Shown: positions 41,056 through 64,000, counted from the stretch's first letter. The stretch is DNA of 64,000 nt from Eledone cirrhosa (GCA_964016885.1 OZ024740.1:119412001-119476000), one strand, 5' to 3'. A program made the numbers and translations. Notes: a model not told the origin generated them from the letters alone.

Positions 41056-41073
41056 TTATTATTATTATTATTA

Positions 41074-41466
41074 CAGTTGCATTTATCTTGCTTTATGTTC
41101 ATACGAGTTATCACCATGTCACAACCAATGACCTCAAGAGACAACAAGATCCGCCATGTTCAAGAAAGAACATACATACATCTTTAGGTGTTTAGACTTG
41201 TGATGTACTTATATTGACAGAATCTTCCTTAGTATATAGGCAGTTCCCATTAGTACTATCTTTTGTATTTCTCCTATACGAGGGTCTCCTGGGATTTGCG
41301 ATAAGTAATCATTAGACCCCTTAGGTATCATTACTAGAGCGCCCTCAACCACTGGTATTGTTTTAGTTCTCAATTTCCACATTTTTCCAATTTCTATCTC
41401 CAGGTCCTTATACTTGCTCAATTTTTCAAATGTTTTTATAGATACATTCTTGTCCATTGGAACGGA

Positions 41467-41468
<2 letters not shown>
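41074..41468 (-). mobile_element. R4/Dong-like family B, copy B1 (3' ~400 bp)
   Basis: EKLSKY..PVV.GAL..LRKILSI* plus the shared 3' UTR; (TAA)n on both sides. Confidence 0.92.
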
Positions 41469-41501
<33 letters not shown>

Positions 41502-41502
<1 letters not shown>

Positions 41503-41953
41503 TCTTCGGCCAACCCCTCATCAACTTCTTCAAGTTTCACCTGGAAAGGGAGGTGAGGATGGAGAGAGAAGTGCTGCCCCCCCCCCCCCCCCCCCCAGTA
41601 CACTTGCTGAAAGGTGGGTGAATGTGGCGAGAATGGCTCGTGTGAATGGGCCTACTCTCACCATGCACCTGTAGGCTAACTAACTTGAGGAGAGGGGTGC
41701 TCTCCCTGGGTGCCCTAGAAGCGCAGGGTGATTCGGGATTGGTGGAGTAATCGAGTCACCCCGGGGTCGTCCACCCCCTATCGTGGAATTTATTTTGTTA
41801 TATTTATGCATAGTTTATTTTATATTTTTATATTTTCATTGTTAAATTAGTCTTGCCATTGTGCACTTTTACTCGACCTTATTGTAAAACCCCACTGATC
41901 CTCTCTTTGTATTGTCCACTACATGTCGGCTCTTGTGGCTAATAAATGAAATC
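41502..41953 (+). mobile_element. 3' end of a probable Tx1-like LINE, opposite orientation to the array
   Basis: ..GQPLINFFKFHLE..ERWVNVARMARVNGPTLTMHL*, 3' UTR, AATAAA, then an (ATT)n tail; clade assigned from recalled similarity. Confidence 0.6.
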
Positions 41954-41971
41954 ATTATTATTATTATTATT

Positions 41972-44900
41972 CTTTGAGTCTCAGTCATTGATGTTATTTA
42001 ACTGGAAAGTTTGTTGAAATGAATATCAAGCCACTACCAGCAGCCTCAGATATTCAGGATGTATCGGAGGGTTCTTGCTGTTCCAAGCAAGCATTCCTTT
42101 TGAAGCGTTCCAAAAAGCGTGAAGGGGCCAATTTTCTTTAACCATCCCTGTAAACATTTTGAGATAGTACCTAGTGCGCCTATGACAATCGGGACCACTT
42201 TGACTTCATGGCAGTTCCAAATCCTTTTTACCTCCCACTTTAAGTCCTGGTATCGGTTAATTTTCTCCCTCTCCTTCTCTTGCACTCACGTGTCGAATGG
42301 GCAGGCCACATCCACAATCAGGCACGATCTTTTTTCTTTGTCCACAACCACCAGGTCAGGTCTATTGTGTTCCAGTTTCTTGTCCGTCTGTATCCTAAAA
42401 TCCCACAGCACCTTCACCTGATCGTTTTCTATCACCGACTCTGGCTTATGCTCATACCACTTCTCAGAATGTGGTAAATTGTTTACTTTGTATAGGTGCC
42501 AGTGGATCAGCCTGCCCATCACATCATGTCTCCAGCCCTTATAGTGAGTCTGGGCTAGGTGTTTACACTCGGATTCAATGTGAGCCACAGTCTCCTCTCT
42601 CTCTCTCCATAGAACCTGCACAGTGGGCTAGCCTCCTCCTTGTAAATATGGTGTTTCAAACACTTCGTTTTGAGAGCCAGCTCTTGCGCAGCCATTAACA
42701 TTCCTTCAGTAGCCTTTTTAAGGTCTCCTCTTTTCAACCAGTTCCATGTCTGTGGATCTCTGAATTCAGTTTTCTCAAAGAAGGTACTGTGAAGGGATTT
42801 TTCCTGAAGGCTGCTCTTTCTCCGTGTTGTTATTTCCTCCTTGGACATCCCCTGGTCTATTGTCCTCTCCTTCAGTACAGTTCTGATCATTGGCTCCTTA
42901 CTATCAGTCACGTATTTGTGTAGGTTGTTTTTCTCCATCTGAACACAGTCCTCTATGCTGATAAGACCTCTTCCACCTTCAGATCTCCTTAAGTAGAGTC
43001 TATCGACATCACTCCTCTTGTGGAACATGTTGTAGATAGTCAATAGCTTCCTAGGCTTCCTATCCATTTCTTTTTGTTCAGCAACATTCCATCTCATAAT
43101 TCCCGCACTGTACATAATAATAGAGACAGCTCGAGAATTTACTGCACTTATGGCATTCCTACTATTCAGATGTTACTTTAATACGCTCCTTACTCTCCGA
43201 ATGTATTCAGTTCTTATCAATTCCTTCAATTTTTTGTTCTTGATGTCATCAGCCTCCAGAACTCCCAAATATTTGTATCCTTCTTCAGTGTCAATTTCCT
43301 TTATCATCCCACCTGTTGGCACCTGGATTCCGTTACTTCTGCTCAATTTACACCTCTTCATCACAAGGACTCCACACTTACTAATACCAAATTGCATACA
43401 TATATCATTGCTGAAAATACGGACAGTGTCAACAAGCACACCCAACTCCTTCTCACTCTTCCCGAAGAGCTTAAGATCGTCCATGAAGAGGAGGTGAATG
43501 ATGGTAAGCTCTCCCTTTCCCAACTTGTATCCTGCTCTCACTTTTCGCAGTATAATGGTCAGGGGCATCAGGGCAAGGACAAACAAGAGGGGACAGACTA
43601 TCTCCCTGGAAGATACCTCTCTTGATCTTCACGCCTCCCAAGGATTCTCCACCTGATCTTAACTCTGTTTCCCAGGACTTCATACTTTTGCCCAACAACT
43701 GTCTGCTGTCATCTGCCACCCTGAAGATCTCTAGGCTTTTGGTGATCCAAGAATGAGGCACCATGTCAAATGCCTTTTTGTAGTCTATCCATCCCATGGC
43801 AAGACCAGTGTGTCTCCTCTTGCAGTTCCTCATTACCATCTTATCAATAAGTAACTGGTCCTTTGTACCACGGGACTTCTTTTGGCATCCTTTCTGTTCG
43901 TCCGGTAACAAGTTGTTTGTGTGGAGGTGATGGTAGATTTCCTCAGACATAATGCTTGTCAACAGTTTCCACACTACGGACAGACATGTGATAGGTCTAT
44001 AGTTGGTAACATCATTACCCTTGATTCGGTCTTTCCTTATCAGAATTGTGGTACCTTTTGTCAACCACTCTGATACCTCACCAGACATCAAGCAGTCATT
44101 GAACATGGTTCTCAGTTTCGGGTTAAGGGATGTTATATTTTTATTCCTATACCCATGCACACCATCCGGGCCTGGTGATTTCCAGTTGGTTAGTTTTGGG
44201 GCCTGCCCCTTAAGAGTTTCAACTGTGATACTCAAATCAGTTTGTTGGTGTGCTTGTTCACTAATCTCCCTCTGTACTGTCTCAATCCACACTGCCTGGT
44301 CATTATGTTTAACATCCTGCTCCAATATTCCTCTCCAGAATGTTTTAGTTTGTTCCGCCTCAGGGATCAAGTCGTTGCCTCTTTCTTTCCCTTCAAGCTG
44401 TCCAAACAGCATCTTCTGGTTGTTGTCAAACATGCGGTCCTGTCTATACTGACTGACTCTGCTCTCGTATCGCCTAATTTTTGCACTCTTTGCTACAATG
44501 CGTTGCTTCAGTTCCTCTATGATAATATTTAGCTTTTTCCTCCTAGTTTGTACTTTAGTTCCAGTCTATTTTTAGTGTCTATGTTTTTAGGTGTCCCATT
44601 CAGTAGGGCCTCAAGCTTTCCAATGTCATTTCTCATTTCCCTGATTTGACCACTCAGTCGTTTCTTCCACCAAGGTTCTGATCTTTCTTGTTTGTTGTTT
44701 CCTCTCGCTTTTATACCAAGTAATTTCCTCACCGTATTTGCTGTTGCTTTGAGGATATTATTGCACTGGTGAAGGCTCCTCGCCTCAAGGTATGGGATGA
44801 CTTTGTTTACCTTAGCTGTTGTTTCTTTTAACTTTTTCCTGTCTACAAATCTTAGGTTCATAGGTTTCCCACTAACATTGTTCAATTCATGTCCCACTAA

Positions 44901-46888
44901 GTTTAAGATATCTACCAAATCTTGTCCTAGCCCGTCACCATTCATCTCCTCAATGGCCGTATCTTTGTTCCAGGTATTATTTATTTCAGCATTCAGATCA
45001 TTGTCTGCTTCGGATGGTTCCTCCGTTCTCTCAACCTCTTCACCTTCATTTCCAACTGGCTCGTTTGCGTGTCATACTCCACTCTCCATTTCCAAGCTAA
45101 TCTATCTGCTCAGTTCCTCCAGTTCCAGCTCGCTTATCCACCCATTAGTTCTTCTTACCCGAGCCTGCCCGGCCAATTTTTGTTCATCTAATTTAAATAG
45201 ACCAATCTCGTTCCAGATGTTATGCATCCGTTTCCTATTGATTTTCTCCTTGGGGTTACTCTTCAGGTAACATTGCATAACAGTTCTATTCAATTCTTTC
45301 GTCCAGTTGGTTCTGGTCCCTTTCCTTCTTCTTCTTCCTCCGACACCAGCAGTATTTAGTTGACAGCCAGGTCCCTGCTGCTGAGCCAGGGAGCACCTGC
45401 TGGGTGAGTGTCTGTCACATGACATTCTAGTCTCCACTTCACCGTTATTCTAACTGTTTAGGTTCGACATTTAAACACTCTTATCGAGGATTGGTGAATG
45501 TATAGTTACATAACCACCGGTGATTTCATCACCTCCGGTGATTTCGTCACTCCTGGTGATTTTTGTGTGGCACTATCACGCTGTAGACGAACATAAATAA
45601 ACAAACGAACAAACAGGCAAAAAAAAAACAAAAAAAACAATAAGCATAAATTTTATTGTAATGTAATGTTTGAATGTCTGACTTAGTTTTTCCCTTCCCT
45701 TCTCTGTCCGTCTGTTTCTTTTTCTTTTCATTTTTCTTTTCTTTACGTTTTTCGTTGTTGCTGTGCTGCTTTTATTTTTATTTTTTTTTATTTTTATTTT
45801 TTGACCGGGTCATCAAATCAGTCTATTTATATATGTTGATGCCTTCCTCTTTTAGTGGGGACACTACGATGTAGCAGGAGGTAGTGGGAGAGAATTGCGG
45901 CGGTAGTGATAATGATGCAGTGGTGGTGGTGGTGGTGGTGGTGGTGCTGTGCTAGTAGTACTTAGCAGGAGATAGTGGGAGAGAATAGCGGCAGTAGCTA
46001 TAATGAGGTGGTGGTGGTGTGATCGTAGTACTGTTAAAGTTGAAGTAGAAATAGAAGTTGAGGTAACTTGACTAGAGTTTTCAGCGTGGTAGTGGTGGTG
46101 GTGTTGGCGGTGAAATTATCTTCGCTGTCCAGTTAGCCATTTAGCTATTTAGCTATATAGTCATTTTGCCATTTTCCTCCTTTTCGACTCTAACACTCCT
46201 GATCCAAAATTAAATATTAATACTGTTTATTAATATTGTCTAGTGATACCGCCACCTTCCCCTGTCGTATGTTAACAGAAGGTAATGGGGGAATAGCGGT
46301 GGTAGCAATGAAGGAGTGGTGGCGGCGGTGATGGGATAATGGTAGCAATGATGGATGGAGTGGTGGCGGCGGTGACTATAGTGATGGCGTTGTCGTTACT
46401 GAGTTTTGTTGGAAAGACTGTAGTTTGGTTGATCGGCGTATCTATGCGGTTAGTCGCATATGTTTAATATATGTGTTGACATATTTCTTTAATATTGGAA
46501 TTAAACATTTTGTGAAAACTTGAGACAATAATAATAGTAATTATTATTATTATGCTGGGATTTGTGGTGGTGGTGGTGAAATTGCCGTTATCTGGCTGTT
46601 GTATTTAGTATACACAGAGGGGTGATGGGATAGGTGGTGTATCTAGTATGTGGTGTTGATGAAATTGCTGTTATTTGGCTGTTCTATATAGTTTAGACAG
46701 AGGGGGTTTTCTTCCATTTATAACCATTTTCTTTTTTGAATATATAATGTATAATACAAAATTAAATATTTGAGAGATATAACAGAATATTATGGATCCG
46801 AATTTTCTGAGACTTTAATCTGGTGCTTTACGTATCATTTGTACTAAGAATTGTTATTTCACAATTGATTTAAATATGTTAAAAATCA

Positions 46889-46889: not shown

Positions 46890-46945
<56 letters not shown>

Positions 46946-47031
46946 GTTATTGTTATTCCTTGAATCTCAGTCATTGATGTTGGTTAACTGGAAAGTCCGT
47001 TGGATTGAATATCAAGCCACTACCTGAAGCC

Positions 47032-50000
47032 TCAGATATTCAGGACGTATCGGAGGGTTCTTGCTGTTCCAAGCAAGCATGCCTTTTGAAGCGTTCCAAA
47101 AAGCGTGAAGGGGCCGATTTTCTTTAACCATCCCTGGAAACTTTTGGAGATAGTCCCCAGTGCGCCTATGACAATCGGGATCACTTTGACTTCATGGCAG
47201 TTCCAGATCCTTTTCACCTCCCACTTTAGGTCCTGGTATCGGCTAATTTTCTCCCTCTCCTTCTCTTGCACTCTCGTGTCGAACGGGCAGGCCACATCCA
47301 CAATCAGGCACGATCTTTTTTCTTTGTCCACAACCACCAGGTCAGGTCTATTGTGTTCCAGTTTTTTGTCCGTCTGTATCCTAAAATCCCACAGCACCTT
47401 CACCTGATTGTTCTCCATCACCGCCTCTGGCCTATGCTCATACCATTTCTCAGAATGTGGTAGATTGTTTACTTTGCACAGGTGCCAGTGGATCACCCTG
47501 CCCATCACATCGTGTCTCCAGCCCTTATAGTGGGTCTGGGCTAGGTGTTTACACTCGGACACAATGTGAGCCACAGTCTCCTCTCTCTCTCCACAGATCC
47601 TGCACAGTGGGCTGGCCTCCTCCTTGTGGATATGGTGCTTCAACCACTTCGTCTTGAGGGCCTGCTCCTGCGCAGCCATTAGCATTCCTTCTGTAGCCTT
47701 TTTGAGGTCTCCTCTTCTCAACCAGTTCCATGTCTGTGGATCTCTAAATTCAGTTTTCTCAAAGAAGGTACTATGAAGGGGTTTTCCCTTAAGGCTGCTC
47801 TTCCTCCTTGATGTTATTTCCTCCCTGGACATCCCCTGGCCTACTGTCCCCTCCTTCAGTACAGCTCTGAGCATTGGCTCCTTACTATAGGTCACGTATT
47901 TGTATAGGTTGTTTTTCTCCATCTGAACACAGTCCTCTATGCTGATAAGACCTCTTCCACCCTCAGATCTCCTTAGGTAGAGTCTATCGACATCAATCCT
48001 CTTGTGGAACATGTTGTAGATAGTCAATAGCTTCCTAGTCTTCCTATCCATTTCTTTCTGTTCAGCAACATTCCATCTCAGAATTCCCGCACTGTACCTA
48101 ATAATAGACACAGCTCGGGAATTTACTGCGCTTATGGCATTTCTGCTGTTCAGATGTGACTTCAATACGCTCCTTACTCTCCGAATGTATTCAGTTCTTA
48201 ACAATTCCTTCATTTTTTTGTTCTTTATGCCATCAGCCTCCAGAACGCCCAAATACTTGTATCCTTCCTCAGAGTCAATTTCCTTTATCATCTCACCTGT
48301 TGGTATCTGGATTCCGTTACTTCTGCTCAACCTACCCCTCTTCATCACAATGACTCCACATTTACCAATACCAAACTGCATACATATATCACTGCTGAAA
48401 ATACGGACAGTGTCAACAAGCACATCCAACTCCTTCTCACTTTTCCCGAAGAGCTTAAGATCGTCCATGAAGAGGAGGTGATTGATGGTAAGCTCTCCCC
48501 TTCCCAACTTGTATCCTGCTCTCACTTTTCGCAGCATAATGGTCAAGGGCATCAGGGCAAGGACAAACAACAGAGGGGACAGGCTATCTCCCTGGAAGAT
48601 ACCTCTCTTGATCTTCACGCTTCCCAAGGATACTCCAGTTGATGTCAACTCTGTCTCCCAGGACCCCATACTCCTGCCTAGCAACTGTCTGATGTTATCT
48701 GCCACCCTGAAGATCTCCAGGCTTTTGGTGATCCAGGAATGAGGCACCATGTCAAATGCCTTTCTGTAGTCTATCCATCCCATGGCAAGATCAGTGTGTC
48801 TCCTCCTGCAATTCCCCATTACCATCTTATCAATAAGCAACTGGTCCTTTGTACCACGTGACTTCTTTCGGCATCCTTTCTGTTCGTCCGGTAACAAGTT
48901 GTTTGTGTGGAGGTGATGGTAGATTTCCTCAGACACAATGCTCGTCAACAGTTTCCACATTACGGGCAGACATGTGATAGGTCTATAGTTGGTAGCATCA
49001 TTACCCTTGATTCGGTCTTTCATTATCAGAACTGTGGTACCTTTTGTCAACCACTCTGGCACCTCACCCGACACCAAGCAGTCATTGAACATGGCCGTCA
49101 GCTTCGGGTGGAGGGATGATAGATGTTTAATCCAATACCCCTGCACACCATCTGGGCCTGGTGATTTCCAGTTGGTTAGTTTTTTGGCTTGCCCCTTAAG
49201 AGTTTCAACTGTGATACTCAAATCAGTCTGTTGCTGTGCCTGCTCACCGATCTCCCTCTGTACTGTCTCAATCCACCCTGCCTGGGCATTGTGTCTAACA
49301 TGCTGCTCCCATATTCCTCTCCAGAATGTTTTAGTTTGCTCCGCCCCAGGGATCAAGTCGTTGCCTCCTTATTTGCCCTCAAGCTGTCCAAACAGCATCT
49401 TCTGGTTGTTGTCGAACATGCGGTTCTGTTTATACTGACTGACTCTGTTCTCGTATCGCCTGATTTTTGCACTCTTTGCTACAATGCGTTGCTTCAATTC
49501 CTCTATGATAATATTTAGCTTTTTACTCCTAGTTTTGTATTTTATTTCCAGTCTATTTTTAGTGCCTATGTTTTTTAGTGTCCCATTCAGTAGTGACTCA
49601 AGCTTTCCTATGTCATTTCTCATTTCCCCGATTTGCCCACTCAGTCGCTTCTTCCACCACGGCTCTGCTCTTTCTTGTCTGTTGTTTCCTCTCGCTTTTA
49701 TACCAAGTAGTTTCCTCACCGTATTTGCTGTTGCTCTGAGGATATTGTTGCACTGGTGAAGGCTCCTCGCCTCAAGGTATGGGATGACTTTGTTTACCTT
49801 AGCTGTTGTTTCTTTTAACTTTTTCCTGTCTACAAATCTTAGGTTCATAGGTCTCCCACTATCATTGTTCAATTCATCTACCACTAAATTTAGGATGTCA
49901 ACCGAATCTTGTCCTAGCCCGTCAGCATTCATCTCCTCAGTGGCCGTATCTCTGTTCCAGGTATTATTTATCTCAGTACTCAGATCATTGTCTGCTTCGG

Positions 50001-50424
50001 GTGGTTCCTCCGTTCTCAGGACCTCCTCACCTTCATTTCCCACCGGCTCGCTTGTCTGGCATACTACACCCGCCATCTCCAAGCCATTCTCTCTGCTCAG
50101 TTCCTCCAGTTCCAGCTCGCTTATCCACCCATTAGTTCTTATTACACGAGCCTGCCCGGCCAATTTTTGTTCATCTAATTTAAATAAACCAATCTCGTTC
50201 CAGATGTTATGCATCCGTCTCCTGTAGCCCCTCTCCTTGGGGTTACTTTTCAGGTAGCATTGCATAACAGTTCTATTCAATTCTTTCGTCCAGTTGGTTC
50301 TGGCCCCTTTCCTTCTTCTCCTTCCTCCAACATCAGCAGTATTTGGTTGACAGTCAGGTTCCTGCTGCTGAGCCAGGGGGCACCTGTTGGGTGAGAGTCT
50401 GTCACATGACGTTCTAGTCTCCAT
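47032..50424 (-). pseudogene. RT + CCHC + restriction-like endonuclease polyprotein (~1130 aa) with one premature stop
   Basis: ORFs 49369-50424 and 47032-49356 are in frame, with TAA where other copies have GAA. Motifs: Myb-like WTKELN, SPGPDG, YRPITCL, QGDSLSP, FMDD, CRIC-x8-H-x4-C, RPD..VDVAC..EK..Y. Confidence 0.95.
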
Positions 50425-50492
50425 TTCACCGTTATTCGAACTGTTTATGTTCGATATTTAAACACTCTTATCGAGGATTGGCGAATGTATGT

Positions 50493-50723
50493 TTACATAG
50501 CCATCTGTGGATCCGCCATCCCACTTGGCCCTTGTGTGGCATTATCACCACGCTGTATACGAACACACATAAACAAACAAACACACAGGCAGAAAGGGCC
50601 CCAGAAATGAATAAGCATAAGTTTCATTGTAATGTAGTGTTCGAATGTCTGACTTAGTTTTAGTTTTTTAAGTTTTACTTTTTCCCCCCTCTTCTCTGTC
50701 CGTCCGCCTGCTTCTCTCTTCAT
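50493..50723 (-). CDS. Candidate upstream ORF (76 aa): basic N-terminus plus hydrophobic segment
   Basis: Homologous 75-aa ORF at 55337-55564 differs by frame-preserving indels; A1 has the same ORF with one homopolymer frameshift. Confidence 0.35.
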   Translation of the reverse strand: MKREAGGRTEKRGEKVKLKKLKLSQTFEHYITMKLMLIHFWGPFCLCVCLFMCVRIQRGDNATQGPSGMADPQMAM

Positions 50724-50726
50724 TCT

Positions 50727-52023
50727 TATTTTCTTTACGTTTTTGGGGTTTCTTTTTTTTTGTTTTTGTTTTTCTCTGTTTGTTTTTCTCGTTTTTTGCT
50801 GTTGTTGCTGTGCTGCTTTGGTTTTGTTGTTTGTTTTTTTTTTTTTCTTTTGGGTCTATATATATATTTTGATGCCTTCCTCTTTGTTAGTAGTAGGAAT
50901 TCTATAATGTGGAAGTAGCAGCCAGCAGGGAAGTGGGAGACTGGCGGCGTTAGCGATACTGAGACAGTGGTGGTGGTGATGTCGATACCGAGGCAGTGGT
51001 GGCGGTGATGTGACCGTATTACTGTAGTGATGGTGCTGTAGCGGAGTCAAGGGGTGGTGGCGGCGGTGATGGGATAGTGGTGGTAATGATGGCCGTAGTG
51101 AGCGGTGGCGGTGAAGGTGAAAATGTGTCGTTATCTGGCTGTTGTGTTTAGTGTACACAGATGATGGGGTGGGTGGTGTATCTAGTTTCTGGTGTTGGTG
51201 AGTTTAGCTGTCCTATATAGTGTAGCCAGAGGAGAGGAGGGGAGGGGTTCTTCTTCCATTTATAGCCATTTTTTGGGGGGGGATATACAGTGTACAATAC
51301 AAAGTTGAATATTTGAATATTTGAGCCTTATAACAATATATTTTCTTTACGTTTTGAGCCTTATAACAATATATTTTCTTTACGTTTTGAGCCTTATAAC
51401 AATATATTTTCTTTACGTTTTTGGGGTTTCTTTTTTTTGTTTTTGTTTTTCTCTGTTTGTTTTTCTCGTTTTTTGCTGTAGTTGCTGTGCTGCTTTGGTT
51501 TTGTTGTTTGTTTTTTCTTTTTTCTTTTGGGTCTATCTATATATTTTGATGCCTTCCTCTTTGTTAGTGGTAGGAATTCTATAATGTGGAAGTAGCAGCC
51601 AGCAGGGAAGTGGGAGACTGGCGGCGTTAGCGATACTGAGACAGTGGTGGTGGTGATGTCGATACCGAGGCAGTGGTGGCGGTGATGTGACCGTATTACT
51701 GTAGTGATGGTGCTGTAGCGGAGTCAAGGGGTGGTGGCGGCGGTGATGGGATAGTGGTGGTAATGATGGCCGTAGTGAGCGGTGGCGGTGAAGGTGAAAA
51801 TGTGTCGTTATCTGGCTGTTGTGTTTAGTGTACACAGATGATGGGGTGGGTGGTGTATCTAGTTTCTGGTGTTGGTGAGTTTAGCTGTCCTATATAGTGT
51901 AGCCAGAGGAAAGGGGGGGGGGGGTTCTTCTTCCATTTATAGCCATTTTTTTTTTTTTTGGATATACAGTGTACAATACAAAGTTGAATATTTGAATATT
52001 TGAGCCTTATAACAATATATTTT
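50727..52023. repeat. Direct duplication (~620 bp x2) in the A2 leader, with a 33-bp triplicated junction
   Basis: ~50727-51343 repeats as ~51405-52023; 'ttgagccttataacaatatattttctttacgtt' occurs x3 at 51321-51420. Confidence 0.93.
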
Positions 52024-52160
52024 GGGTCCGAATTTACGTAGCATTTGTGCTAAGAGTTGTTATTTCACAAATGGTTTAAATATGTTAAAAATTCAAAACT
52101 TACGGGAGCGATTTCATGACCTCCGTCACCTCGTGCGTCTTCTTCTTCTTCTTCTTCTTC

Positions 52161-52195
<35 letters not shown>

Positions 52196-52219: not shown

Positions 52220-55200
52220 CCTTGAATCTCAGTCATTGATGTTGGTTAACTGGAAAGTCCGTTGGAATGAATATCAAGCCACTACCTGCAGCCTCAGATA
52301 TTCAGGACGTATCGGAGGGTTCTTGCTGTTCCCAGCAAGCATGCCTTTTGAAGCGTTCCAAAAAGCGTGAAGGGGCCGATTTTCTTTAACCATCCCTGGA
52401 AACTTTTGGAGATAGTCCCCAGTGCGCCTATGACAATCGGGATCACCTTGACTTCATGGCAGTTCCAAATCCTTTTTACCTCCCACTTTCAGTCCTGGTA
52501 TCGGTTAATTTTCTCCCTCTCCTTCCCTTGCACTCTCGTGTCGAATGGGCAGGCCACATCCACAATCAGACACGCTCTTTCTTCTTTGTCCACAACCACC
52601 AGGTCAGGTCTATTGTGTTCCAGTTTCTTGTCCGTCTGTTTCCTAAAATCCCACAGCACCTTCACCTGATCGTTCTCCATCAGCGCCTCTGGCCTATGCT
52701 CATACCATTTCTCAGAATGTGTTAAATTGTTTACTTTGCGCAGGTGCCAGTGGATCACCCTGCCCATCACAACATGTCTCCAGCCCTTATAGTGGGTCTG
52801 GGCTAGGTGTTTACACTCGGATACAATGTGAGCCACAGTCTCCTCTCTATCTCTCCACAGATCCTGCACAGTGGGCTAGCCTCCTCCTTGTAAATATGGT
52901 GTTTCAACCACTTCGTTTTGAGGGCCTGCTCCTGCGCAGCCATTAACATTCCTTCTGTAGCCTTTTTGAGGTTTCCTCTTCTCAACCAGTTCCATGTCTG
53001 TGGATCTCTAAATTCAGTTTTCTCAAAGAAGGTACTATGAAGGGATTTTCCCTGAAGGCTGCTCTTTCTCCTTGATGTTATTTCCTCCTTGGACATCCCC
53101 TGGCCTACTGTCCCCTCCTTCAGTACAGTTCTGAGCATTGGCTCCTTACTATCAGTCACGTATTTGTGTAGGTTGTTTTTCTCCATCTGAACACAGTCCT
53201 CTATGCTGATAAGACCTCTTCCACCCTCAGATCTCCTTAGGTAGAGTCTATCGACATCACTCCTCTTGTGGAACATGTTGTAGATAGTCAATAGCTTCCT
53301 AGTCTTCCTATCCATTTCTTTTTGTTCAGCAACATTCCATCTCAGAATTCCCGCACTGTACCTAATAATAGACACAGCTCGGGAATTTACTGCGCTTATG
53401 GCATTTCTGCTGTTCAGATGTGACTTCAATACGCTCCTTACTCTCCGAATGTATTCAGTTCTTAACAATTCCTTCATTTTTTTGTTCTTTACGCCATTAG
53501 CCTCCAGAACGCCCAAATACTTGTATCCTTCCTCAGAGTCAATTTCCTTTATCATCTCACCTGTTGGTATCTGGATTCCGTTACTTCTGCTCAACCTACC
53601 CCTCATCATCACAATGACTCCACACTTACTAATACCAAACTGCATACATATATCACTGCTGAAATTACGGACAGTGTCAACAAGCACATCCAATTCCTTC
53701 TTACTCTTCCCGAAGAGCTTATGATCGTCCATGAAGAGGAGGTGATTGATGGTAAGCTCTCCCTTTCCCAACTTGTATCCTGCTCTCACTTTCCGCAGCA
53801 TAATGGTCAAGGGCATCAGGGCAAGGACAAACAACAGAGGGGACAGACTATCTCCCTGGAAGATACCTCTCTTGATCTTCACACTTCCCAAGGATTCTCC
53901 AGTTGATGTCAACTCTGTCTCCCAGGACTCCATACTCCTGCCCAGCAACTGTCTGATGTTATCTGCCACCTTGAAGATCTCCAGGCTTTTGGTGATCCAA
54001 GAGTGAGGCACCATGTCAAATGCCTTTCTGTAGTCTATCCATCCCATGGCAAGATCAGTGTGTCTCCTCCTGCAATTCCCCATTACCATCTTATCAATAA
54101 GTAACTGGTCCTTTGTACCACGTGACTTCTTTCGGCATCCTTTCTGTTCGTCCGGTAACAAGTTGTTTGTGTGGAGGTGATAGTAGATTTCCTCAGACAG
54201 AATGCTCGTCAACAGTTTCCACATTACGGACAGACATGTGATAGGTCTATAGTTGGTAACATCATTACCCTTGATTCGGTCTTTCATTATCAGAACTGTG
54301 GTAAATTTTGTCAACCACTCTGACACCTCACCCGACACCAATCAGTCATTGAACATGGCCGTCAGTTTCGAGTGGAGGGATGTTAATGTTTAATCCAATA
54401 CCCCTGCACACCATCTGGGCCTGGTAATTTCCAGTTGGTTACTTTTTTTGCCTGCCCCTTAAGAGTTTCAACTGTGATACTCAAATCAGTTTGTTGGTGT
54501 GCCTGCTCACCGATCTCCCTCTGTACTGTTTCAATCCACCCTGCCTGGTCATTATGTCTAACATCCTGCTCCCATATTCCTCTCCAGAATGTTTTAGTTT
54601 GTTCCGCCTCAGGGATCAAGTCGTTGCCTCTTTCTTTCCCCTCAAGCTGTCCAAACAGCATCTTCTGGTTGTTGTCGAACATGCGGTTCTGTTTATACTG
54701 ACTGACTCTGTTCTCGTATCGCCTGATTTTTGCACTCTTTGCTGCAATGCGTTGCTTCAGTTCCTCTATGATAATATTTAGCTTTTTCCTCCTAGTTTTG
54801 TACTTTATTTCCAGTCTATTTTTAGTACCTATCTTTTTAGTGTCCCATTCTGTAGTGACTCAAGCTTTCCTATGTCATTTCTCATTTCCTTGATTTGACC
54901 ACTCAGTCGTTTCTTCCACCAAGGCTCTGCTCTTTCTTGTCTGTTGTTTCCTCTCGCTTTTATACCAAGTAGTTTCCTCGCCGTATTTGCTGTTGCTTTG
55001 AGGATATTGTTGCACTGGTGAAGGCTCCTCGCCTCAATCTCGTTCCAGATGTTATGCATCCGTCTCTTATAGCCCCTCTCTTGGGGTTACTTTTCAGGTA
55101 ACATTGCATAACAGTTCTATTCAATTCTTTCGTCCAGTTGGTTCTGGCCCCTTTCCTTCTTCTTCTTCCTCCAACACCAGCAGTATTTGGTTGACAGTCA

Positions 55201-56523
55201 GGTTCCTGCTGCTGAGCCAGGGAGCACCTGTTGGGTGAGAGTCTGTCACATGACGTTCTAGTCTCCATTTCACCGTTATTCGAACTGTTTAGGTTCGATA
55301 TTTAAACACTCTTATCGAGGATTGGCAAATGTATGGTTACATAGCCATCTGTGGATTCACCGTTTCCGGTGGTTGCGCCGTTCCATTTGGCACTTGTGTG
55401 GCATTATCACCACGCTGTAGACGAACACAAATAAACAAACAAACACACAGGCATAAAAAACCCCCAAAATGAATAAGCATAAGTTTCATTGTAATGTAGT
55501 GTTCGAATGTCTGACTTAGTTTTTCCCCTCTCTTCTCTGTCCGTCCGCTTGTTTCTCTCTTCATTCTTATTTTCTTTACGTTTTTTTTTTGTTTTTTGTT
55601 TTTGTTTTTCTCTGTTTGTTTTTCTCGTTTTTTGCTGTTGTTGGTGTGCTGTTTTGGGTTTGATATTTGTTTTTTCTTTTTTCTTTTGAGTCTATCTATA
55701 TATTTTGATGGCTTCCTCTTTTTTAGTAGGAATTCTATAATGTGGTGGCAGCAACTAGCAGAAGCAATGGGAGACAGTAGCGGCAGTAGCGATACTGCGA
55801 CAGTGGTGGTGGTGATGTCGATACCGAGGCAGTGGTGGCGGTGATGTGATCGTATTACTGTAGTGATGGTGTTGTAGCGGTGGTAGCAATGAAGGAGGAG
55901 TGGTGGCGGCGGTGATGGTGGGATAGTGGTAGTAATGATGGCAGCAGTGATGGTGTTGTTGTAGCGGTGGTAGCAATGAAGGACTGATGTCCGTTCGGTG
56001 AATCTATGGGGTTAGTCGCGTATATGTGTGTTGACCTAAATTCCCTTAATGTTGGGATTAAACAGTTTGTTAAGACTTGGGACAATAATAATAGTATTTA
56101 TTATTATCCTTATTATGTTAAGATTGGTTGTGGTGGTGGTGAAATTGCCGTTATCTGGCTGTTGTGTTTAGTGTACACAGAGAGGTGATGGGGGTAGGTG
56201 GTGTATCTAGTTTCTAGTGTTGGTGAGATTGGTGTTGTTTGGCTGTTCTATATAGTGTAGACAGAGGAGAGGGGGGGTTCTTCTTCCATTTATAGCCATT
56301 TTCCTTTTTTGAATATACAATGTACAATACAAAGTTGAATATTTGAATATTTGAGCCTTATAACAATATATTTTGGGTCCGAATTTTTTTTGGGCTCAAG
56401 CCGGATGCTTTACGTAGCATTTGTGCTAAGAGTTGTTATTTCACAAATGATTTAAATATGTTAAAAATTCAAAACTTACGGGAGCGATTTCATGACCTTC
56501 TACCACCTCGTGCGTCTTCTTCC
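52220..56523 (-). mobile_element. R4/Dong-like family A, copy A3 (both ends present, ~415-bp internal deletion)
   Basis: Colinear with A2; deletion junction at ~55037; frameshifts. Confidence 0.93.
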
Positions 56524-56594
56524 CTATATATTATTATATAATATTATTATTATTATATAATATTATTATTATTATATAATATTATTATTATTAT

Positions 56595-58243
56595 TTGCAT
56601 TTATCTTGCTTTATGTTTATACGAGTTATCACCAAGTCACAACCAGTGACCTCAAGAGACAACAAGGTCCGCCATGTTCAAGAAAGAACATACATATTCA
56701 CACATGCATCCTTAGTGTTTAGACTTGTGATGTACTTATATTGACAGGATCTTCCTTAGTATATGGGCAGTTCCCATTAGTACTATCTTTTGTATTTCTC
56801 CTATACGCGGGTTTCCTGGGATTTGCGATAAGTAGTCGTTAGACCCCTTAGGTATCATGCCCAGAGCGCCTACAACTACTGGTATTGTTTTAGTTCTCAA
56901 TTTCCACATTTTTCCAATTTCTATCTCCAGGTCCTTATACTTGCTCAATTTTTCAAATGTTTTTATAGATACATTCTTGTCTATTGGAACAGACATATCA
57001 ATTAGCAGGCATACCCTCCTTTGAAAGTCCTTCAATATTATATCAGGTCTATTTGCATCTATTTTTCGGTCTGTTTGGATGCTAAAGTTCCACAAGATTG
57101 AGATGTGATCTTTTTCAAGTATGGGAGGTGGTTGATGCTCCCACCAATTCTTTTGATGGGGCAGGTCAAAATGCTTACACATTATCCAATGTATGTATTG
57201 TGCAGCTCTGTCATGCCTGTTTAGGTATTCGGTTGGAGCTATAGGACTGCACATTGAAATTATATGGTCAATGGTCTCTGGTTGTTTTTTGCATACACGG
57301 CATAATGGGCTGCACCCATTTTTTATTATGTTGGCTTGGTAATTTTTTGTTGGCAGACACTGATCTTGTGCCGATATAATCAGTCCTTCAGTCTCCGATT
57401 TCAGTCCAGAGGATGCCAACCACTGATGTGTTAAAGTTTTGTCAACATCAGGATTGTTAGCTCGCTCTGGGTATTTTCCATACAGAGGCTTTTCTTGCCA
57501 TTTCTTAGCCAGTTTCTGTAACAGTTCTTTCTTTGCAGTTACTTTTACCTGCTTTGCTTTTTCTGTGTTTTCCATTTCAGCAGTAAATGGGACTTCTGAA
57601 ATTTGTAGTCCATTACTGTATCTTTGTGCATCTTTTGTAATGGAATATGATCTTTTGGTGCTTTCGTGTTTCAAAACGAGTTTGATCATCCAATCATGTG
57701 ATTCCCTTAGATATGTGGATAATCCAATTGTTGCAGTTTTCAACGCAATGTCTAACTGGATTAACCCACGTCCTCCTTTCCTAGGGAGATATATTCTATC
57801 TATGTCTGCCTTAGGATGATGCATTCTGTGCATGGTTAAGAATTTTCGGATTTTTGTATCGAGCCTACGGATCTCTGTGCTTGACCAGTTGATGACATTG
57901 TAACTGTAGGTTACTACTGGTATGGCAAGCGTGTTTATGGCATCGATCCTATTCCTTGCATTCAATTCCGTTCTTAAGATTGCTCTGACTCTGCGGTAAC
58001 ATTCCTTCCTTTCCCTCATTGTCGAGTGCTTGATTCCGTCTCCTTCACAAACACCTAGATATTTGTAAGTTTTTTCTTGATCAAGCTCTCTTATCACGTT
58101 CCCCCGATCAAGATTAATGTCTGAACTCTTCAGCAGCTTTCCTCTGGTGAACGTTGCTTTGGCGCATTTATCCAGTCCAAACTCCATTTTAATGTCATCA
58201 CTGAACTGCTTCACAGGGGATAATAGCCCTTGCAATTGTTCAT
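56595..58243 (-). mobile_element. R4/Dong-like family B, copy B2 (5'-truncated)
   Basis: FGLDKC, YKYLG, GGRGL, CRVC..HIISMC, RPDII..IDMS..EKLSKY. Confidence 0.93.
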
Positions 58244-58261
58244 TATTATTATTATTATTAT

Positions 58262-58437
58262 GGCGGTGGATTGGCAGTATCGGTAGAAGGTCGGACGCCA
58301 TGCTTCGACGCATAGAGTTACGGCCCTTGCCATTCTGAGTTCAAATCCCGCCGAGGTCAACTTTGCCTTTCATCCTTACGGGGTCGATAAAATAAAGTAC
58401 CAGTAATGCACTGGGTAATGTGCCAAAAGTAGAAACA

Positions 58438-58438: not shown

Positions 58439-58485
<47 letters not shown>

Positions 58486-58487
58486 GT

Positions 58488-59041
58488 TCTTTGAGTCTCA
58501 GTCATTGATGTTAGTTAACTGGAAAGTTTGTTGAAATGAATATCAAGCCACTACCTGCAGCCTCAGATATTCAGGACGTATCGGAGGGTTCTTGCTGTTC
58601 CCAGGTCTATAGTTGGTAACATCATTACCCTTGATTCGGTCTTTCATTATCAGAACTGTGGTACCTTTGGTCAACCACTCTGGTACCTCACCTGACATCA
58701 AGCAGTCATTGAGCATGGTTGTAAGTTTCGGGTTAAGGGATGTTATATTTTTAATCCAATACCCCTGCACACCATCTGGGCCTGGTGATTTCCAGTTGGT
58801 TAGTTTTTGGGCCTGCCCCTTAAGAGTTTCAACTGTGATACTCAAGTCAGTTTGTTGGTGTGCCTGTTCACTAATCTCCTTGTGTACTGTCTCAATCCAC
58901 ACTGCATGGTCATTATGTTTAACATCCTGCTCCCATATTCCTCTCCAGAATGTTTTAGTTTGTTCCGCCTCAGGGATCAAGTGATTGCCTCTTTCTTTCC
59001 CCTCAAGCTGTCCAAACAGCATCTTCTGGTTGTTATCAAAG
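58488..59041 (-). mobile_element. Family A copy A4: 5'-truncated with a ~1.9-kb internal deletion
   Basis: Junction near 58603 fuses NYRP of the RT N-terminus to the last ~115 bp of the element. Confidence 0.9.
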
Positions 59042-59042
59042 A

Positions 59043-59093
<51 letters not shown>

Positions 59094-59106
59094 CATTGTT
59101 ATTACT

Positions 59107-60909
59107 CTTTGAGTCTCAGTCATTGATGTTAGTTAACTGGAAAGTTTGTTGAGATGAATATCAAGCCACTACCTGCAGCCTCAGATATTCAGGACGTATC
59201 GGAGGGTTCTTGCTGTTCCCATCAAGTATGCCTTTTGAAGCGTTCCAAAAAGCGTGGCGGGGCCAATTTTTTTTAACCATCCCTGGAAACTTTTTGAGAT
59301 AGTATTTAGTGCGCCTATGACAATTGGGACTACTTTGACTTCGTGGTAGTTCCAAATCCATTTTATCTCCCACTTTAAGTCCTAGTATCAGTTAATTTTC
59401 CCCCTCTCCTTCTCTTGCACTCTCGTGTCGAATGGGCAGGCCACATCCACAATCAGGCACGATCTTTTTTCCTTGTCCAAAACCACCAGGTCAGGCCTAT
59501 TGTGTTCCAGTTTCTTGTCCGTCTATATCCTAAAATCCCACAGCTCCTTCACCTGATCGTTTTCTATCACCACCTCTGGCTTATGCTCATACCACTTCTC
59601 AGAATGTGGTAAATTGTTTACTTTGCATAGGTGCCAGTGGATCAGCCTGCCCATCATATCATGTCTCCAGCCCTTATAGTGGGTCTGGGCTAGGTGTTTA
59701 CACTCGGATACAATGTGAGCCACAGTCTCCTCTCTCTCTCCACAGATCCTGCACAGTGGGCTAGCCTCCTCCTTGTAAATGTGGTGTTTCAACCACTTCG
59801 TTTTGAGGGCCTGCTCCTGCGCAGCCATTAACATTCCTTCTGTAGCCTTTTTAAGGTCTCCTCTTTTCAACCAGTTCCATGTCTGTGGATCTCTAAATTC
59901 AGTTTTCTCAAAGAAGGTACTATGAATGGATTCTTCCTGAAGGCTGCTCTTTCTCCTTGATATTATTTCCTCCTTGGACATCCCCTGGCCTATTGTCCCC
60001 TCCTTCAGTACAGTTCTGAGCATTGGCTCCTTACTATCAGTCACGTATTTGTGTAGGTTGTTTTTCTCCATCTGAACACAGTCCTCTATGCTGATAAGAC
60101 CTCTTCCACCCTCAGATCTCCTTAAGTAGAGTCTATCAACATCACTCCTCTAGTGGAACATATTGTAGATAGTCAATAGCTTCCTAGGCTTCCTATCCAT
60201 TTCCTTTTGTTCAGCAACATTCCATCTCAGAATTCCCGCACTGTACCTAATAATAGAAACAGCTCGGGAATTTACTGCACTTATGGCATTCCTACTGTTC
60301 AGATGTGACTTTAATACGCTCCTTACACTCCGAAGGTATTCAGTTCTTATCAATTCCTTCATTTTTTTGTTCTTGATGTCATAAGCATCCAGAACGCCCA
60401 AATACTTGTATACTTCCTCAGAGTCAATTTCTTTTATCATCTGTTGGTATCTGGATTCCGTTACTTCTGCTCAACTTACCCCTCCTCATCACAATAACTC
60501 CACACTTACTAATACCAAATTGCATACATATATCATTGCTGAAATTACGGACAGTGTCAACAAGCACATCCAACTCCTTCTCACTCTTCCCGAAGAGCTT
60601 AAGATCGTCCATGAAGAGGAGGTGATTGATGGTAAGCTCTCCCTTTCCCAACCTGTATCCTGCTCTCACTTTTCGCAGTACACTGGTCAGGGGAACCAGG
60701 GCAAGGACAATCAACAGAGGGGACAGACTATCTCCCTGGAAGATACCTCTCTTGATCTTCACGCCTCCCAAGGATTCTCCAGTTGATGTTAACTCTGTTT
60801 CCCAGGACTTCATACTTTTGCCCAACAACTGCCTGATGTTATCTGCCACCTTGAAGATCTCCTGGCTTTTGGTGATCCAAGAATGAGGCACCATGTCAAA
60901 TGCCTTTTT

Positions 60910-60912
<3 letters not shown>
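59107..60912 (-). mobile_element. Family A copy A5 (5'-truncated within RT)
   Basis: Begins at KAFDMVPH; frameshifts; shared 3' UTR. Confidence 0.92.
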
Positions 60913-60942
<30 letters not shown>

Positions 60943-60990
60943 GTAGTAGTAGTAGTAGTAGTAGTATTATTATTATTATTATTATTATTA

Positions 60991-62865
60991 CAGTTGCATT
61001 TATCTTGCTTTATGTTCATACGAGTTATCACCAAGTCACAACCAGTGACCTCAAGAGACAACAAGGTCCGCCATGTTCAAGAAAGAACATACATATTCAC
61101 ACATGCATCTTTAGTGTTTAGACTTGTGATGTACTTATATTGACAGAATCTTCCTTAGTATATGGGCAGTTCCCATTAGTACTATCTTTTGTATTTCTCC
61201 TATACGCGGGATTCCTGGGATTTGCGATAAGTAATCATTAGACCCCTTAGGTATCATTCCTAGGGCGCCTACAACCACTCGTATTGTTTTAGTTCCTAAT
61301 TTCCACATTTTTCCAATTTCTATCTCCAGGTCCTTATACTTGCTCAATTTTTCAAATGTTTTTATAGATACATTCTTGTCTATTGGAACAGACATATCAA
61401 TTAGCAGGCATACCCTCTTTTGAAAGTCCTTCAATATTATATCAGGTCTATTTGCATCTATTTTTCGGTCTGTTTGGATGCTAAAGTTCCACAAGATTGA
61501 GATGTGATCTTTTTCAAGTATGGGAGGTGGTTGATGCTCCCACCAATTCTTTTGATGGGGCAGGTCAAAATGCTTACACATTATCCAATGTATCTATTGT
61601 GCAGCTCTGTCATGCCTGTTTAGGTATTCGGTTGGAGCTATAGGACTGCACATTGAAATTATATGGTCAATGGTCTCTGGTTGTTTTTTGCATACATGGC
61701 ATAATGGGCTGTACCCATTTTTTATTATGTTGGCTTGGTAATTTTTTGTTGGCAGACACTGATCTTGTGCCGATATAATCAGTCCTTCAGTCTCCGATTT
61801 CAGTCCAGAGGATGCCAACCACTGATGGGTTAAAGTTTTGTCAACATCAGGATTGTTAGCTCGCTCTGGGTATTTTCCATACAGAGGCTTTTCTTGCCAT
61901 TTCTTAGCCAGTTTCTGTAGCAGTTCTTTCTTTGCAGTTACTTTTACCTGCTTTGCTTTTTCTGTGTTTTCCATTTCAGCAGTAAATGGGACTTCTGAAA
62001 TGTGTAGTCCATTACTGCATCTTTGTGCATCTTTTGTAATGGAATATGATCTTTTGATGCTTTCGTGTTTCAAAACGAGTTTGATCATCCAATCATGTGA
62101 TTCCCTTAGATATGTAGATAATCCAATTGTTGCAGTTTTCAACGCAATGTCTAACTGGATTAACCCACGTCCTCCTTCTTTCCTAGGGAGCTATATTCTA
62201 TCTATATCTGCCTTACGGTGATGCATTCTGTGCATGGTTAAGAATTTTCGAATTTTTGTATCGAGCCTACGGATCTCTATGCTTGACCTGTTGATGACAT
62301 TGTAACTGTAGGTTACTACTGGTATGGCAAGCGTGTTTATGGCATCGATCCTATTCCTTGCATTCAATTCGGTTCTTAAGATTGCTCTTACTCTGCGGTA
62401 ACATTCCTTCCTTATCCTTTCCCTCATTGTCGAATGCTTGATTCCGTCTCCTTCACAAACACCTACATATTTGTAAGTTTTTTCTTGATCAAGTTCTCTT
62501 ATCACGTTCCCCCGATCAAGATTAATGTCTGAACTCTTCAGCAGCTTTCCTCTGGTGAACGTTGCTTTGGCGCATTTATCTAGTCCAAACTCCATTTTAA
62601 TGTCATCACTGAACTGCTTCACAGTGGATAATAGCCCTTGCAATTGTTCATCATTTTTTGCAAATAGTTCGGGTCATCCATGTAGAACAGGTGATTAATG
62701 GTTTTGTCATAGACTTTATATCCATGTTTTGTTTCATTGAGCATTTTACTTAATGGTATAAGTGCGATGCAGAATAAAAGCGGTGATAATGAGTCACCCT
62801 GAAAAATTCCACAATTAATATTAACTTCTCCAGCTTCCAGTGATTTTGTTTCACTATTCAAAAGG

Positions 62866-62868
<3 letters not shown>
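60991..62868 (-). mobile_element. Family B copy B3 (5'-truncated)
   Basis: QGDSLSP and FYMDD through to LRKILSI*; one frameshift plus stops. Confidence 0.92.
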
Positions 62869-62923
<55 letters not shown>

Positions 62924-62924
<1 letters not shown>

Positions 62925-64000
62925 AGCTACATTTATCTTGCTTTATGTTCATACGAGTTATCACCAAGTCACAACCAGTGACCTCAAGAGACAACAAATT
63001 CCGCCATGTTCAAGAAAGAACATACATATCCACACATGCATCTTTAGTGTTTAGACTTGTGATGTACTTATATTGACAGAATCTTCCTTAGTATATGGGA
63101 AGTTCCCATTAGTACTATCTTTTGTATTTCTCCTATATGCGGGATTCCTGGGATTTGCGATAAGTAATCATTAGACCCCTTAGGTATCATTCCTAGGGCG
63201 CCTACAACCACTCGTATTGTTTTAGTTCCTAATTTCCACATTTTTCCAATTTCTATCTCCAGGTCCTTATACTTGCTCAATTTTTCAAATGTTTTTATAG
63301 ATACATTCTTGTCTATTGGAACGGACAATTAGCAGGCATACCCTCTTTTTAAAGTCCTTCAATATTATATCAGGTCTATTTGCATCTATTTTTCGGTCTG
63401 TTTGGATGCTAAAGTTCCACAAGATTGAGATGTGATCTTTTTCAAGTATGGGAGGTGGTTGATGCTCCCACCAATTCTTTTGATGGGGTAGGTCAAAATG
63501 CTTACACATTATCCAATGTATGTAATGTGCAGCTCTGTCATGCCTGTTTAGGTATTCGGTTGGAGCTATAGGACTGCACATTGAAATTATATGGTCAATG
63601 GTCTCTGGTTGTTTTTTACATACACGACATAATGGGCTGCATCCATTTTTTTATTATGTTGGCTTGGTAATTTTTTGTTGGCAGACACTGATCTTGTGCT
63701 GATATAATCAGTCCTTCAGTCTCTGATTTCAGTCCAGAGGATGCCAACCACTGATGGGTTAAAGTTTTGTCAACATCAGGATTGTTAGCTCGTTCTGGGT
63801 ATTTTCCATACAGAGGCTTTTCTTGCCATTTCTTAACCAGTTTCTATAGCAGTTCTTTCTTTGCAGTTACTTTTACCTGCTTTGCTTTTTCTGTGTTTTC
63901 CATTTCAGCAGTAAATGGGACTTCTGAAATGTGTAGTCCATTACTGTATCATTCGTGTTTCAAAACGAGTTTGATCATCCAATCATGTGATTCCCTTAGA
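62924..64000 (-). mobile_element. Family B copy B4 (runs beyond window end)
   Basis: Near-identical to B2/B3 with small deletions. Confidence 0.92.

What the first reader, a model, noticed from the sequence alone, without database searches (positions are those of the whole stretch)
41056..64000. Unidirectional array of two R4/Dong-like retrotransposon families stacked in (TAA)n (at least 23 kb)
Seen: nine copies (B1, A1, A2, A3, B2, A4, A5, B3, B4), all on the minus strand, head-to-tail, each separated by a (TTA)n tract. Copies differ in 5' truncation point and mutations, and two A subtypes exist (3' ends ctttgagtc vs ccttgaatc). Known: Dong (R4 clade) targets TAA repeats. Inference: every insertion leaves (TAA)n on both sides, regenerating the target, so one microsatellite grew by serial insertion into a strand-polarised cluster shared by two families. 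The result resembles telomeric HeT-A/TART or TRAS/SART arrays, or a unistrand piRNA cluster. The polarity implies strand-specific nicking of the repeat.
Basis: partly seen in the sequence, partly recalled or inferred. Interest (0 to 1): 0.75.

Follow-up and report, generated by a model that had tools for sequence, protein, structure and literature searches.

The report
Jumping genes stacked in TAA repeat
Nine copies of two Dong-type jumping genes lie head-to-tail in one TAA repeat, likely because each insertion leaves fresh repeat for the next; such stacks are common in this genome, an unrelated jumping gene enters the same repeats facing the other way, and the two Dong families carry a shared front end that they likely swapped.

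Summary
The array is real: nine R4/Dong-type copies, all on the minus strand, 41,056 to 65,954 (24.9 kb, ending 2 kb past the window), bounded by (TTA)n at both ends. Serial insertion is supported: the copies differ in age and truncation point, each has a closer relative elsewhere, and Dong 5' ends with no Dong neighbour sit on (TAA)n (19 of 20). Three corrections. (1) It is not purely unidirectional: a Tx1-like LINE tail and a SINE lie inside on the plus strand. Around 29 sampled sites Dong reads TAA-sense (114 of 114) and Tx1 reads ATT-sense (46 of 47). (2) It is not a special locus: 5 of those 29 chains reach 20 kb and one also holds nine Dong copies; the site is interstitial. (3) Polarity does not prove strand-specific nicking; pairing of the RNA tail with the primer would give the same pattern. 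Extra finding: families A and B (37-40% protein identity) share a 0.55-0.7 kb 5' leader that likely changed hands at least twice. TAA targeting by Dong is published. This scan noted the arrays, the Tx1 polarity and the shared leader before on other DNA of this genome.

The parts
40509..41055 (+). Repeat P, 3' part of a dispersed element (Penelope-like by inference) whose (T)TT(ATT)n tail likely gave the first target
   Evidence: Dispersed family. 7 of 20 other copies are followed by (ATT)3 or more. A contig C10 locus has the same P-(TTA)-B junction with P 76% and B 92-96% alike, so likely independent.
41056..41073 (.). (TTA)6, left boundary tract
41074..41467 (-). B1: family B, last 394 bp only
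   Evidence: best outside match 94.6%
41502..41953 (+).
   Evidence: Encodes the ORF2 C-terminus of the full-length APE-RT family; a 91% copy is the tail of such an element in L045
41972..46888 (-). A1: near full-length older A, V-type leader lacking about the first 55 nt, ORF broken
   Evidence: its leader is 90-96% like that of a B copy over 600 nt
46958..52160 (-). A2: full-length young A (99% to dispersed copies), U-type leader with a 0.68-kb duplication also seen in other copies, one frameshift in the ORF
52220..56525 (-). A3: full-length ends, internal deletion near 55036, intermediate leader
   Evidence: the first 500 nt of a full-length B are 96-97% like this leader
56595..58241 (-). 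B2: family B, last 1,647 bp
58260..58437 (+).
   Evidence: no ARAGORN or Rfam match
58487..59042 (-). A4: truncated A with a large internal deletion (113 bp of 3' end joined to 440 bp of ORF)
59106..60910 (-). A5: last 1,805 bp of an older A
60989..62869 (-). B3: last 1,881 bp of B
62924..64000 (-). B4: last 2,992 bp of B; runs to window-equivalent 65915, followed by (TTA)13 to 65954, the right boundary

Best explanation
This is a stack of nine R4/Dong-type retrotransposon copies in one (TAA)n microsatellite, likely built by independent insertions over a long time. Shown: Dong copies across the genome have (TAA)n on the sense strand at both ends, copies sharing a tract face the same way, and the window's copies are of different ages and lineages. 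Inferred steps: (1) the ATT tail of repeat P likely supplied the first tract; (2) the Dong protein would nick the (TTA)n strand and prime reverse transcription there, helped by pairing with the (UAA)n-type RNA tail; (3) each insertion splits the tract and adds a tail, so the number of targets grows and later copies land in the same orientation; (4) a Tx1-like APE LINE and a SINE with (AUU)n tails would prime on the other strand and so enter the same tracts facing the opposite way. Full-length A and B copies share a 5' leader that likely moved between the families at least twice, probably by template switching, and likely serves as promoter (untested).
For: Sense (TAA)n follows 67 of 69 Dong 3' ends and precedes 36 of 39 young 5' junctions in the 29 anchor regions. 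It precedes 19 of 20 young 5' ends with no Dong neighbour, so it is target and not only tail. Tract neighbours: Dong TAA-sense 114 of 114, Tx1 ATT-sense 46 of 47, SINE ATT-sense 13 of 14. 30 of 30 Tx1 heads follow (ATT)n and 18 of 30 abut a Dong copy head-to-head. All nine window copies have a closer match outside the array. Window A copies are rejected as a clade (4 against 49 rows, p-AU 2e-154), window B copies too (3 against 17, p-AU 0.013). A pairs share 0-2 private sites. Imperfect tail units recur at many loci (20 and 11 of the 64 A ends in the commonest classes), so the tail is copied from RNA. Leader: 88% over 594 columns between a full-length A and B whose bodies have no nucleotide match; same head in 20 of 30 B loci and 15 of 30 A loci; the leader tree needs at least 3 A/B changes and rejects an A clade at p-AU 0.0003.
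Against: B3 and B4, which are adjacent, share 5 private sites against at most 3 in 378 outside pairs, and are unstarred sisters in the tree, so a local duplication or conversion may have touched this pair. True tandem duplications occur inside other stacks (contig C2 near 353.6 Mb, period 4,911; L042; L049). One of 29 chains has Dong on both strands, fused head-to-head without a tract (R113). Older copies show (TAA)n at the 5' junction in only 13 of 25 cases. The anchor regions were chosen on A 3' ends from the first 47 Mb of one contig. The assembly was not checked with long reads. The leader tree assumes no recombination within the 400 nt used.
Confidence: 0.85

Rival explanations
1. Polarity comes from RNA-tail pairing, not from a strand-specific endonuclease: either strand may be nicked, but only a nick on the strand complementary to the RNA tail gives an insertion. 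This is a rival for step 2 only; the serial model stands.
For: Orientation matches tail sequence in all three element classes. The SINE has only a weak preference (an ATT tract on a side in 9 of 30 loci, none TAA) yet keeps the same polarity. In R2, 3' homology partly rescues priming in vitro (PMC10499050, passages).
Against: R2's RLE nicks the bottom strand sequence-specifically and does not need 3' homology (same passages). Near-complete target fidelity of Dong (19 of 20) and Tx1 (30 of 30) fits enzyme recognition.
Confidence: 0.3
2. The array arose mainly by tandem duplication or unequal exchange of a few inserted copies.
For: B3-B4 share 5 private sites. Such duplications exist in other stacks.
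Against: No two copies share a truncation point. Every copy has a closer relative elsewhere. In each of six 300-nt bins B3 has an outside copy closer than B4. Window copies are rejected as clades.
Confidence: 0.04
3. The stack is kept or shaped by selection as a unistrand piRNA cluster.
For: Dense, polarised transposon content; nothing else.
Against: Polarity is explained by the target. The same architecture recurs at many sites on both strands (4,740 and 4,752 A ends) and includes opposite-strand Tx1.
Confidence: 0.06
4. The array is an assembly artefact that strings repeats together through (TAA)n tracts.
For: Not checked with long reads.
Against: Copies are 86-98% alike with distinct junctions and private mutations, which mis-joining of near-identical repeats would not give. 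Both ends are anchored in non-Dong sequence.
Confidence: 0.03

Closest known systems
Dong (Bombyx mori), DongAg, DongBg and ostracod Dong1/2; R4 clade (PMC3812793, PMC7998251, passages read)
   Same: Single ORF with RT and restriction-like endonuclease, no N-terminal zinc finger, insertion into (TAA)n. Dong-R4 families are recently active in Octopus vulgaris (5 families, 1,129 recent insertions; PMC13282606, first third read).
   Different: At least 13,000 3' ends here, often in 10-29 kb mixed stacks. A 0.55-0.7 kb leader is shared between two distant families. No HDV-like ribozyme was detected at the 5' end, whereas silkworm Dong has one (PMC3774820, passages).
Tandem elements by double insertion at a preserved target (McGurk and Barbash, bioRxiv 10.1101/158386, passages read); R1 tandems; Utopia tandems in U2 genes (PMC4640811, passages)
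   Same: Insertion keeps and duplicates the target, neighbours have distinct 5' truncations, and later unequal exchange can expand a dimer.
   Different: Here the target is a microsatellite that the element's own tail lengthens, stacks reach nine Dong copies, and they mix unrelated clades in opposite orientation.
Microsatellite-specific Tx1 families Kibi (TC)n, Koshi (TTC)n, crocodilian (TTCC)n/(TTTC)n (PMC4494074, passages read)
   Same: APE-type LINE inserted in a simple repeat with fixed orientation.
   Different: The target is (ATT)n, the same repeat that Dong uses from the other strand; I found no such target in the passages read.
5' UTR recruitment and transfer in mouse L1 (PMC3600994, passages) and tobacco RTE (bioRxiv 2022.11.04.512097, abstract and section 12)
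   Same: The leader is exchanged while the body is kept; template switching is the proposed route.
   Different: There, exchange is among close subfamilies and co-existing lineages tend to have non-homologous leaders. Here, two families at 37-40% protein identity carry the same leader at the same time.
Telomeric arrays HeT-A/TART/TAHRE and TRAS/SART (recalled, not read here)
   Same: Polarised arrays of non-LTR elements; TRAS and SART use one repeat from opposite strands (recalled).
   Different: This site is interstitial (119 Mb of 443 Mb), one of many, and no chromosome-end role is indicated.

Membership tests
R4/Dong clade (family A and B) | One ORF with RT domain | tested here: met
   Stop-free 1,141-aa frame in a dispersed A copy; RVT_1 E 8e-23 (A) and 6e-28 (B). 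All window copies are broken or truncated.
R4/Dong clade (family A and B) | C-terminal CCHC knuckle and PD..D..K restriction-like endonuclease, no APE domain | tested here: met
   Motifs at 952 and 1037, conserved in 24 aligned homologues; also visible in B. Best sequence and fold matches are R2 proteins. The motif patterns are recalled.
R4/Dong clade (family A and B) | No N-terminal C2H2 zinc finger (unlike R2) | tested here: met
   No C2H2 pattern in A; B's N-terminus was not tested
R4/Dong clade (family A and B) | Divergent N-terminal SANT/Myb-like domain (PMC7998251) | tested here: inconclusive
   Conserved helical domain at residues 53-129, pLDDT about 80-90; no Pfam Myb match; the lone-domain model was too poor to search
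R4/Dong clade (family A and B) | Insertion into (TAA)n in fixed orientation | tested here: met
R4/Dong clade (family A and B) | RT phylogeny groups with named Dong/R4 elements | not testable with these tools
   None of the 120 listed homologues carries a clade name; no named reference was available
R4/Dong clade (family A and B) | HDV-like ribozyme at the 5' end (silkworm Dong, R4) | tested here: inconclusive
   No Rfam match in 40000-64000; 0 of 23 leaders fit a recalled descriptor that had no positive control; head fold z 0.76
Tx1 clade (X1 and its family) | ORF1 plus ORF2 with APE endonuclease and RT | tested here: met
   Exo_endo_phos E 3e-14 and RVT_1 E 2e-17 in a full-length relative; X1 matches its C-terminus
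Tx1 clade (X1 and its family) | RT phylogeny within Tx1 rather than L1 proper | not tested
   The label rests on domain order, 3' structure and recall
Telomeric retrotransposon array | Located at a chromosome end or in telomeric repeat | tested here: not met
   C1:119.45-119.48 Mb of 442.9 Mb
Unistrand piRNA cluster | Single-strand precursor and uniquely mapping piRNAs | not testable with these tools
   No small-RNA data were available

The most novel reading that the evidence does not exclude
The TAA stacks are exchange sites for retrotransposon parts: because Dong A, Dong B and Tx1 pile up head-to-tail and head-to-head in the same tracts, read-through transcripts and template jumps repeatedly fuse one family's leader to another's body. 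One promoter module, first taken from Tx1, then sweeps through both Dong families, so a shared microsatellite target drives co-evolution across clades.
Probability: 0.3. Interest if true: 0.7.

Novelty: new variant of a known kind. Interest (0 to 1): 0.42.

Why it matters
The stack itself is what published Dong biology and the double-insertion model predict, so it is not surprising alone. Its scale matters for this genome: Dong and Tx1-like sequence make up 3.4% and 4.2% of 300 kb sampled at even steps, and 15 of 18 tracts of six or more units there abut an element, so these microsatellites are mostly insertion sites. Two unrelated endonuclease types using one three-base repeat from opposite strands give a simple substrate to ask whether the enzyme or the RNA tail sets orientation. 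The leader shared by two distant co-active families runs against the L1 pattern of non-homologous leaders in co-existing lineages and can be tested with reporters.

Tried and rejected
Reads: no RNA holder was listed. Laying four runs on 40000-46880 gave only short contigs and reduced-representation reads; no piece spans a junction usefully, so it says nothing for or against the assembly or for polymorphism. A third Dong family suspected from a recurring flank proved to be the head of a Tx1-like element read antisense. The idea that the SINE is (ATT)n-specific was rejected: 18 of 30 loci have no tract on either side, and many show short duplications that start with ATTAT. A recent duplication B4 to B3 was rejected; shared ancestry or conversion stays open. 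A copied P+B1 block on contig C10 was rejected because P is 76% and B 92-96% alike and the truncations differ. Ribozyme searches found nothing, without a positive control. The Myb-like domain could not be confirmed. The original Dong paper is not held; Kojima and Fujiwara 2004 and Repbase were not seen, so an (ATT)n Tx1 family or Dong tandem arrays may be recorded there. Eight library searches listed no paper on multi-copy Dong stacks, on Dong and Tx1 sharing TAA, or on a leader shared by Dong families; most hits were seen only as listings. No supplements were read; those of PMC4494074 and PMC13282606 may bear on targets and family lists.

Full report
Setting. The window is G000:C1:119,412,001-119,476,000 in a 3.0-Gb animal genome. 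No tool named the organism; the SINE and repeat content look octopod to me (recalled), as earlier scan notes also suggest.

Observation. Self-comparison and segmentation at the tracts recover the nine copies in the stated order, all on the minus strand. The array continues 1,954 bases past the window: B4 is 2,992 bp, 5'-truncated, and ends on (TTA)13; no further A or B sequence was found in the next 56 kb or in the 41 kb to the left. Total length is 24.9 kb. Two inserts were missed, both plus strand with tracts on either side: X1 (41502-41953) and S1 (58260-58437).

What A and B are. A dispersed A copy has a stop-free 1,141-aa frame with RT, a CCHC knuckle and a PD..D..K nuclease motif, and no C2H2 finger. 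Its best solved relatives by sequence and fold are R2 proteins. A conserved helical N-terminal domain fits the Myb-like domain described for R4/Dong, but I could not confirm that fold (PMC7998251, passages). A and B proteins are 37-40% identical. Exact 24-nt 3'-end patterns occur 9,492 times for A and 3,506 times for B, evenly on both strands, and 0 times reversed. Dong's TAA target is published for insects, molluscs and cnidarians (PMC3812793; PMC7998251), and Dong-R4 is recently active in Octopus vulgaris (PMC13282606). No named reference was available for a tree.

Target and polarity. I took every third of the first 100 listed A ends on C1 as anchors (30 anchors, 29 regions, 600 kb). Sense (TAA)n follows 67 of 69 Dong 3' ends, never the antisense tract; it precedes 36 of 39 young and 13 of 25 older 5' junctions. 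With the 30 evenly spaced regions added and junctions next to another Dong left out, 19 of 20 young 5' ends still sit on (TAA)n, so the tract is target and not only tail. Imperfect tail units recur across loci, so part of the 3' tract is copied from RNA. Each insertion therefore likely splits a tract and adds a tail.

The other strand. Unannotated stretches between tracts proved to be full-length APE-RT LINEs of Tx1 type; X1 is a truncated 3' end of this group. All 30 fetched heads of one such family follow (ATT)n, and 18 of 30 abut a Dong copy head-to-head. Over 126 tracts in the anchor regions, Dong neighbours were TAA-sense 114 of 114, Tx1 ATT-sense 46 of 47 and SINE ATT-sense 13 of 14. The SINE is only weakly tied to tracts (9 of 30 loci, one of them the window's own). 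The stacks are thus bidirectional, with orientation fixed by family. That pattern cannot separate strand-specific nicking from pairing of the RNA tail with the primer; R2 shows both specific bottom-strand nicking and rescue by 3' homology (PMC10499050, passages). Tx1 families specific for (TC)n, (TTC)n, (TTCC)n and (TTTC)n are published (PMC4494074, passages).

Serial insertion or duplication. No two window copies share a truncation point. Each has a closer match outside the array, from 94.6% (B1) to 99.2% (A2, B2); the margin for B4 is only 97.3 against 97.2, and some outside loci were fetched twice. Trees reject a window clade for A (p-AU 2e-154; A4 left out as too short) and for B (p-AU 0.013; B1 left out). 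Against this: B3 and B4 share 5 private sites where 378 outside pairs share at most 3, and B3 was the top non-self hit for B4's 3' end among 40 scored candidates. They still differ at 50 of 1,835 sites and B3 has closer outside copies in all six bins, so this pair is old common ancestry, an old duplication or patchy conversion. Real tandem duplications are seen in other stacks, as the double-insertion model expects (bioRxiv 10.1101/158386, passages).

How special is this locus. After extending the 13 chains that ran off their regions, 19 of 29 chains hold two or more Dong 3' ends, 15 reach 10 kb, 5 reach 20 kb, 19 include Tx1, and one, at C1 2.79-2.81 Mb, has nine same-strand Dong copies over 25.3 kb. 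One chain has Dong on both strands. These come from 47 Mb of one contig and are size-biased, so the window's array is in the upper tail, and tens of equals genome-wide are likely (rough inference). Earlier scan notes report arrays of 19-60 kb elsewhere in this genome (unreviewed).

Founder. The left flank is repeat P, which ends directly on the first tract. Seven of 20 other P copies end in (ATT)3 or more, and one on contig C10 carries a B copy at the same junction, with P only 76% alike. P's tail as the first target is likely but inferred.

Shared leader. A full-length A and a full-length B match at 88% over the first 594 columns and nowhere else. The same head, starting right after (TAA)n, was found in 20 of 30 B loci and 15 of 30 A loci picked by body sequence; the others showed no head within the 1.5-kb flank. 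A B copy is 96-97% like window A3 over 500 nt, and another B copy is 90-96% like window A1 over 600 nt. In a tree of 54 leaders (first 400 nt; four rows dropped as mis-set, duplicate or truncated) A and B interleave, well-supported branches force at least three label changes, and an A clade is rejected at p-AU 0.0003. Leader exchange is known among close L1 and RTE subfamilies (PMC3600994; bioRxiv 2022.11.04.512097). I reached this before consulting the scan's notes, which report it too and add a Tx1 origin. My test of that lead gave weak support: scores 162-201 against shuffle means 108-125, with 0-4 of 300 shuffles as high. Promoter function is untested.

Verdict. It is a new variant of a known kind. 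The surprising parts are genome-wide properties, the opposite-strand Tx1 partner and the shared leader, which this window illustrates (X1; A1 and A3 leaders).

Noticed in passing
G000:C2:353.61-353.64 Mb (L059-L065, L287-L289): Seven or more near-identical full-length B copies at a 4,911-bp period, grown inside a mixed Tx1-A-A-B stack: a Dong tandem array likely made by unequal exchange.
   Followed up: partly
L005/L040, L007/L008/L042, L011/L046, L014, L073: Some young A 5' junctions carry a short inverted (TTA)n between the target (TAA)n and the element (4 of 98 junctions), perhaps a snap-back or second-strand priming mark.
   Followed up: no
L043:5600-5690 (B 5' UTR): B's 5' UTR holds about 55 bp matching the SINE's tail region in the same sense, so B likely captured a SINE piece.
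   Followed up: no
L087:1-4700: A 45-bp satellite of at least 100 units made from the SINE head.
   Followed up: no
window 50727-52023: The 0.68-kb duplication in A2's leader is also present in dispersed A copies (L045, L107, L130), so it marks a subfamily and is not a local event.
   Followed up: partly
L043:6591-6714: Two tiny units made of the first 43 nt of the Dong leader fused to the antisense Tx1 head, each between TAA tracts; the break lies at leader position 44.
   Followed up: no
L031:3957-4125 (right flank): A palindromic dispersed repeat directly beyond the right boundary tract.
   Followed up: partly
window 8067-9497 (-), 9713-10909 (+), 25013-27838 (-): Decayed Penelope-like RT frames and hAT-type transposase fragments (weak RVT_1, zf-BED and Dimer_Tnp_hAT matches).
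   Followed up: partly
L107, L139, L037: A further unclassified repeat sits between TAA tracts in several stacks.
   Followed up: no
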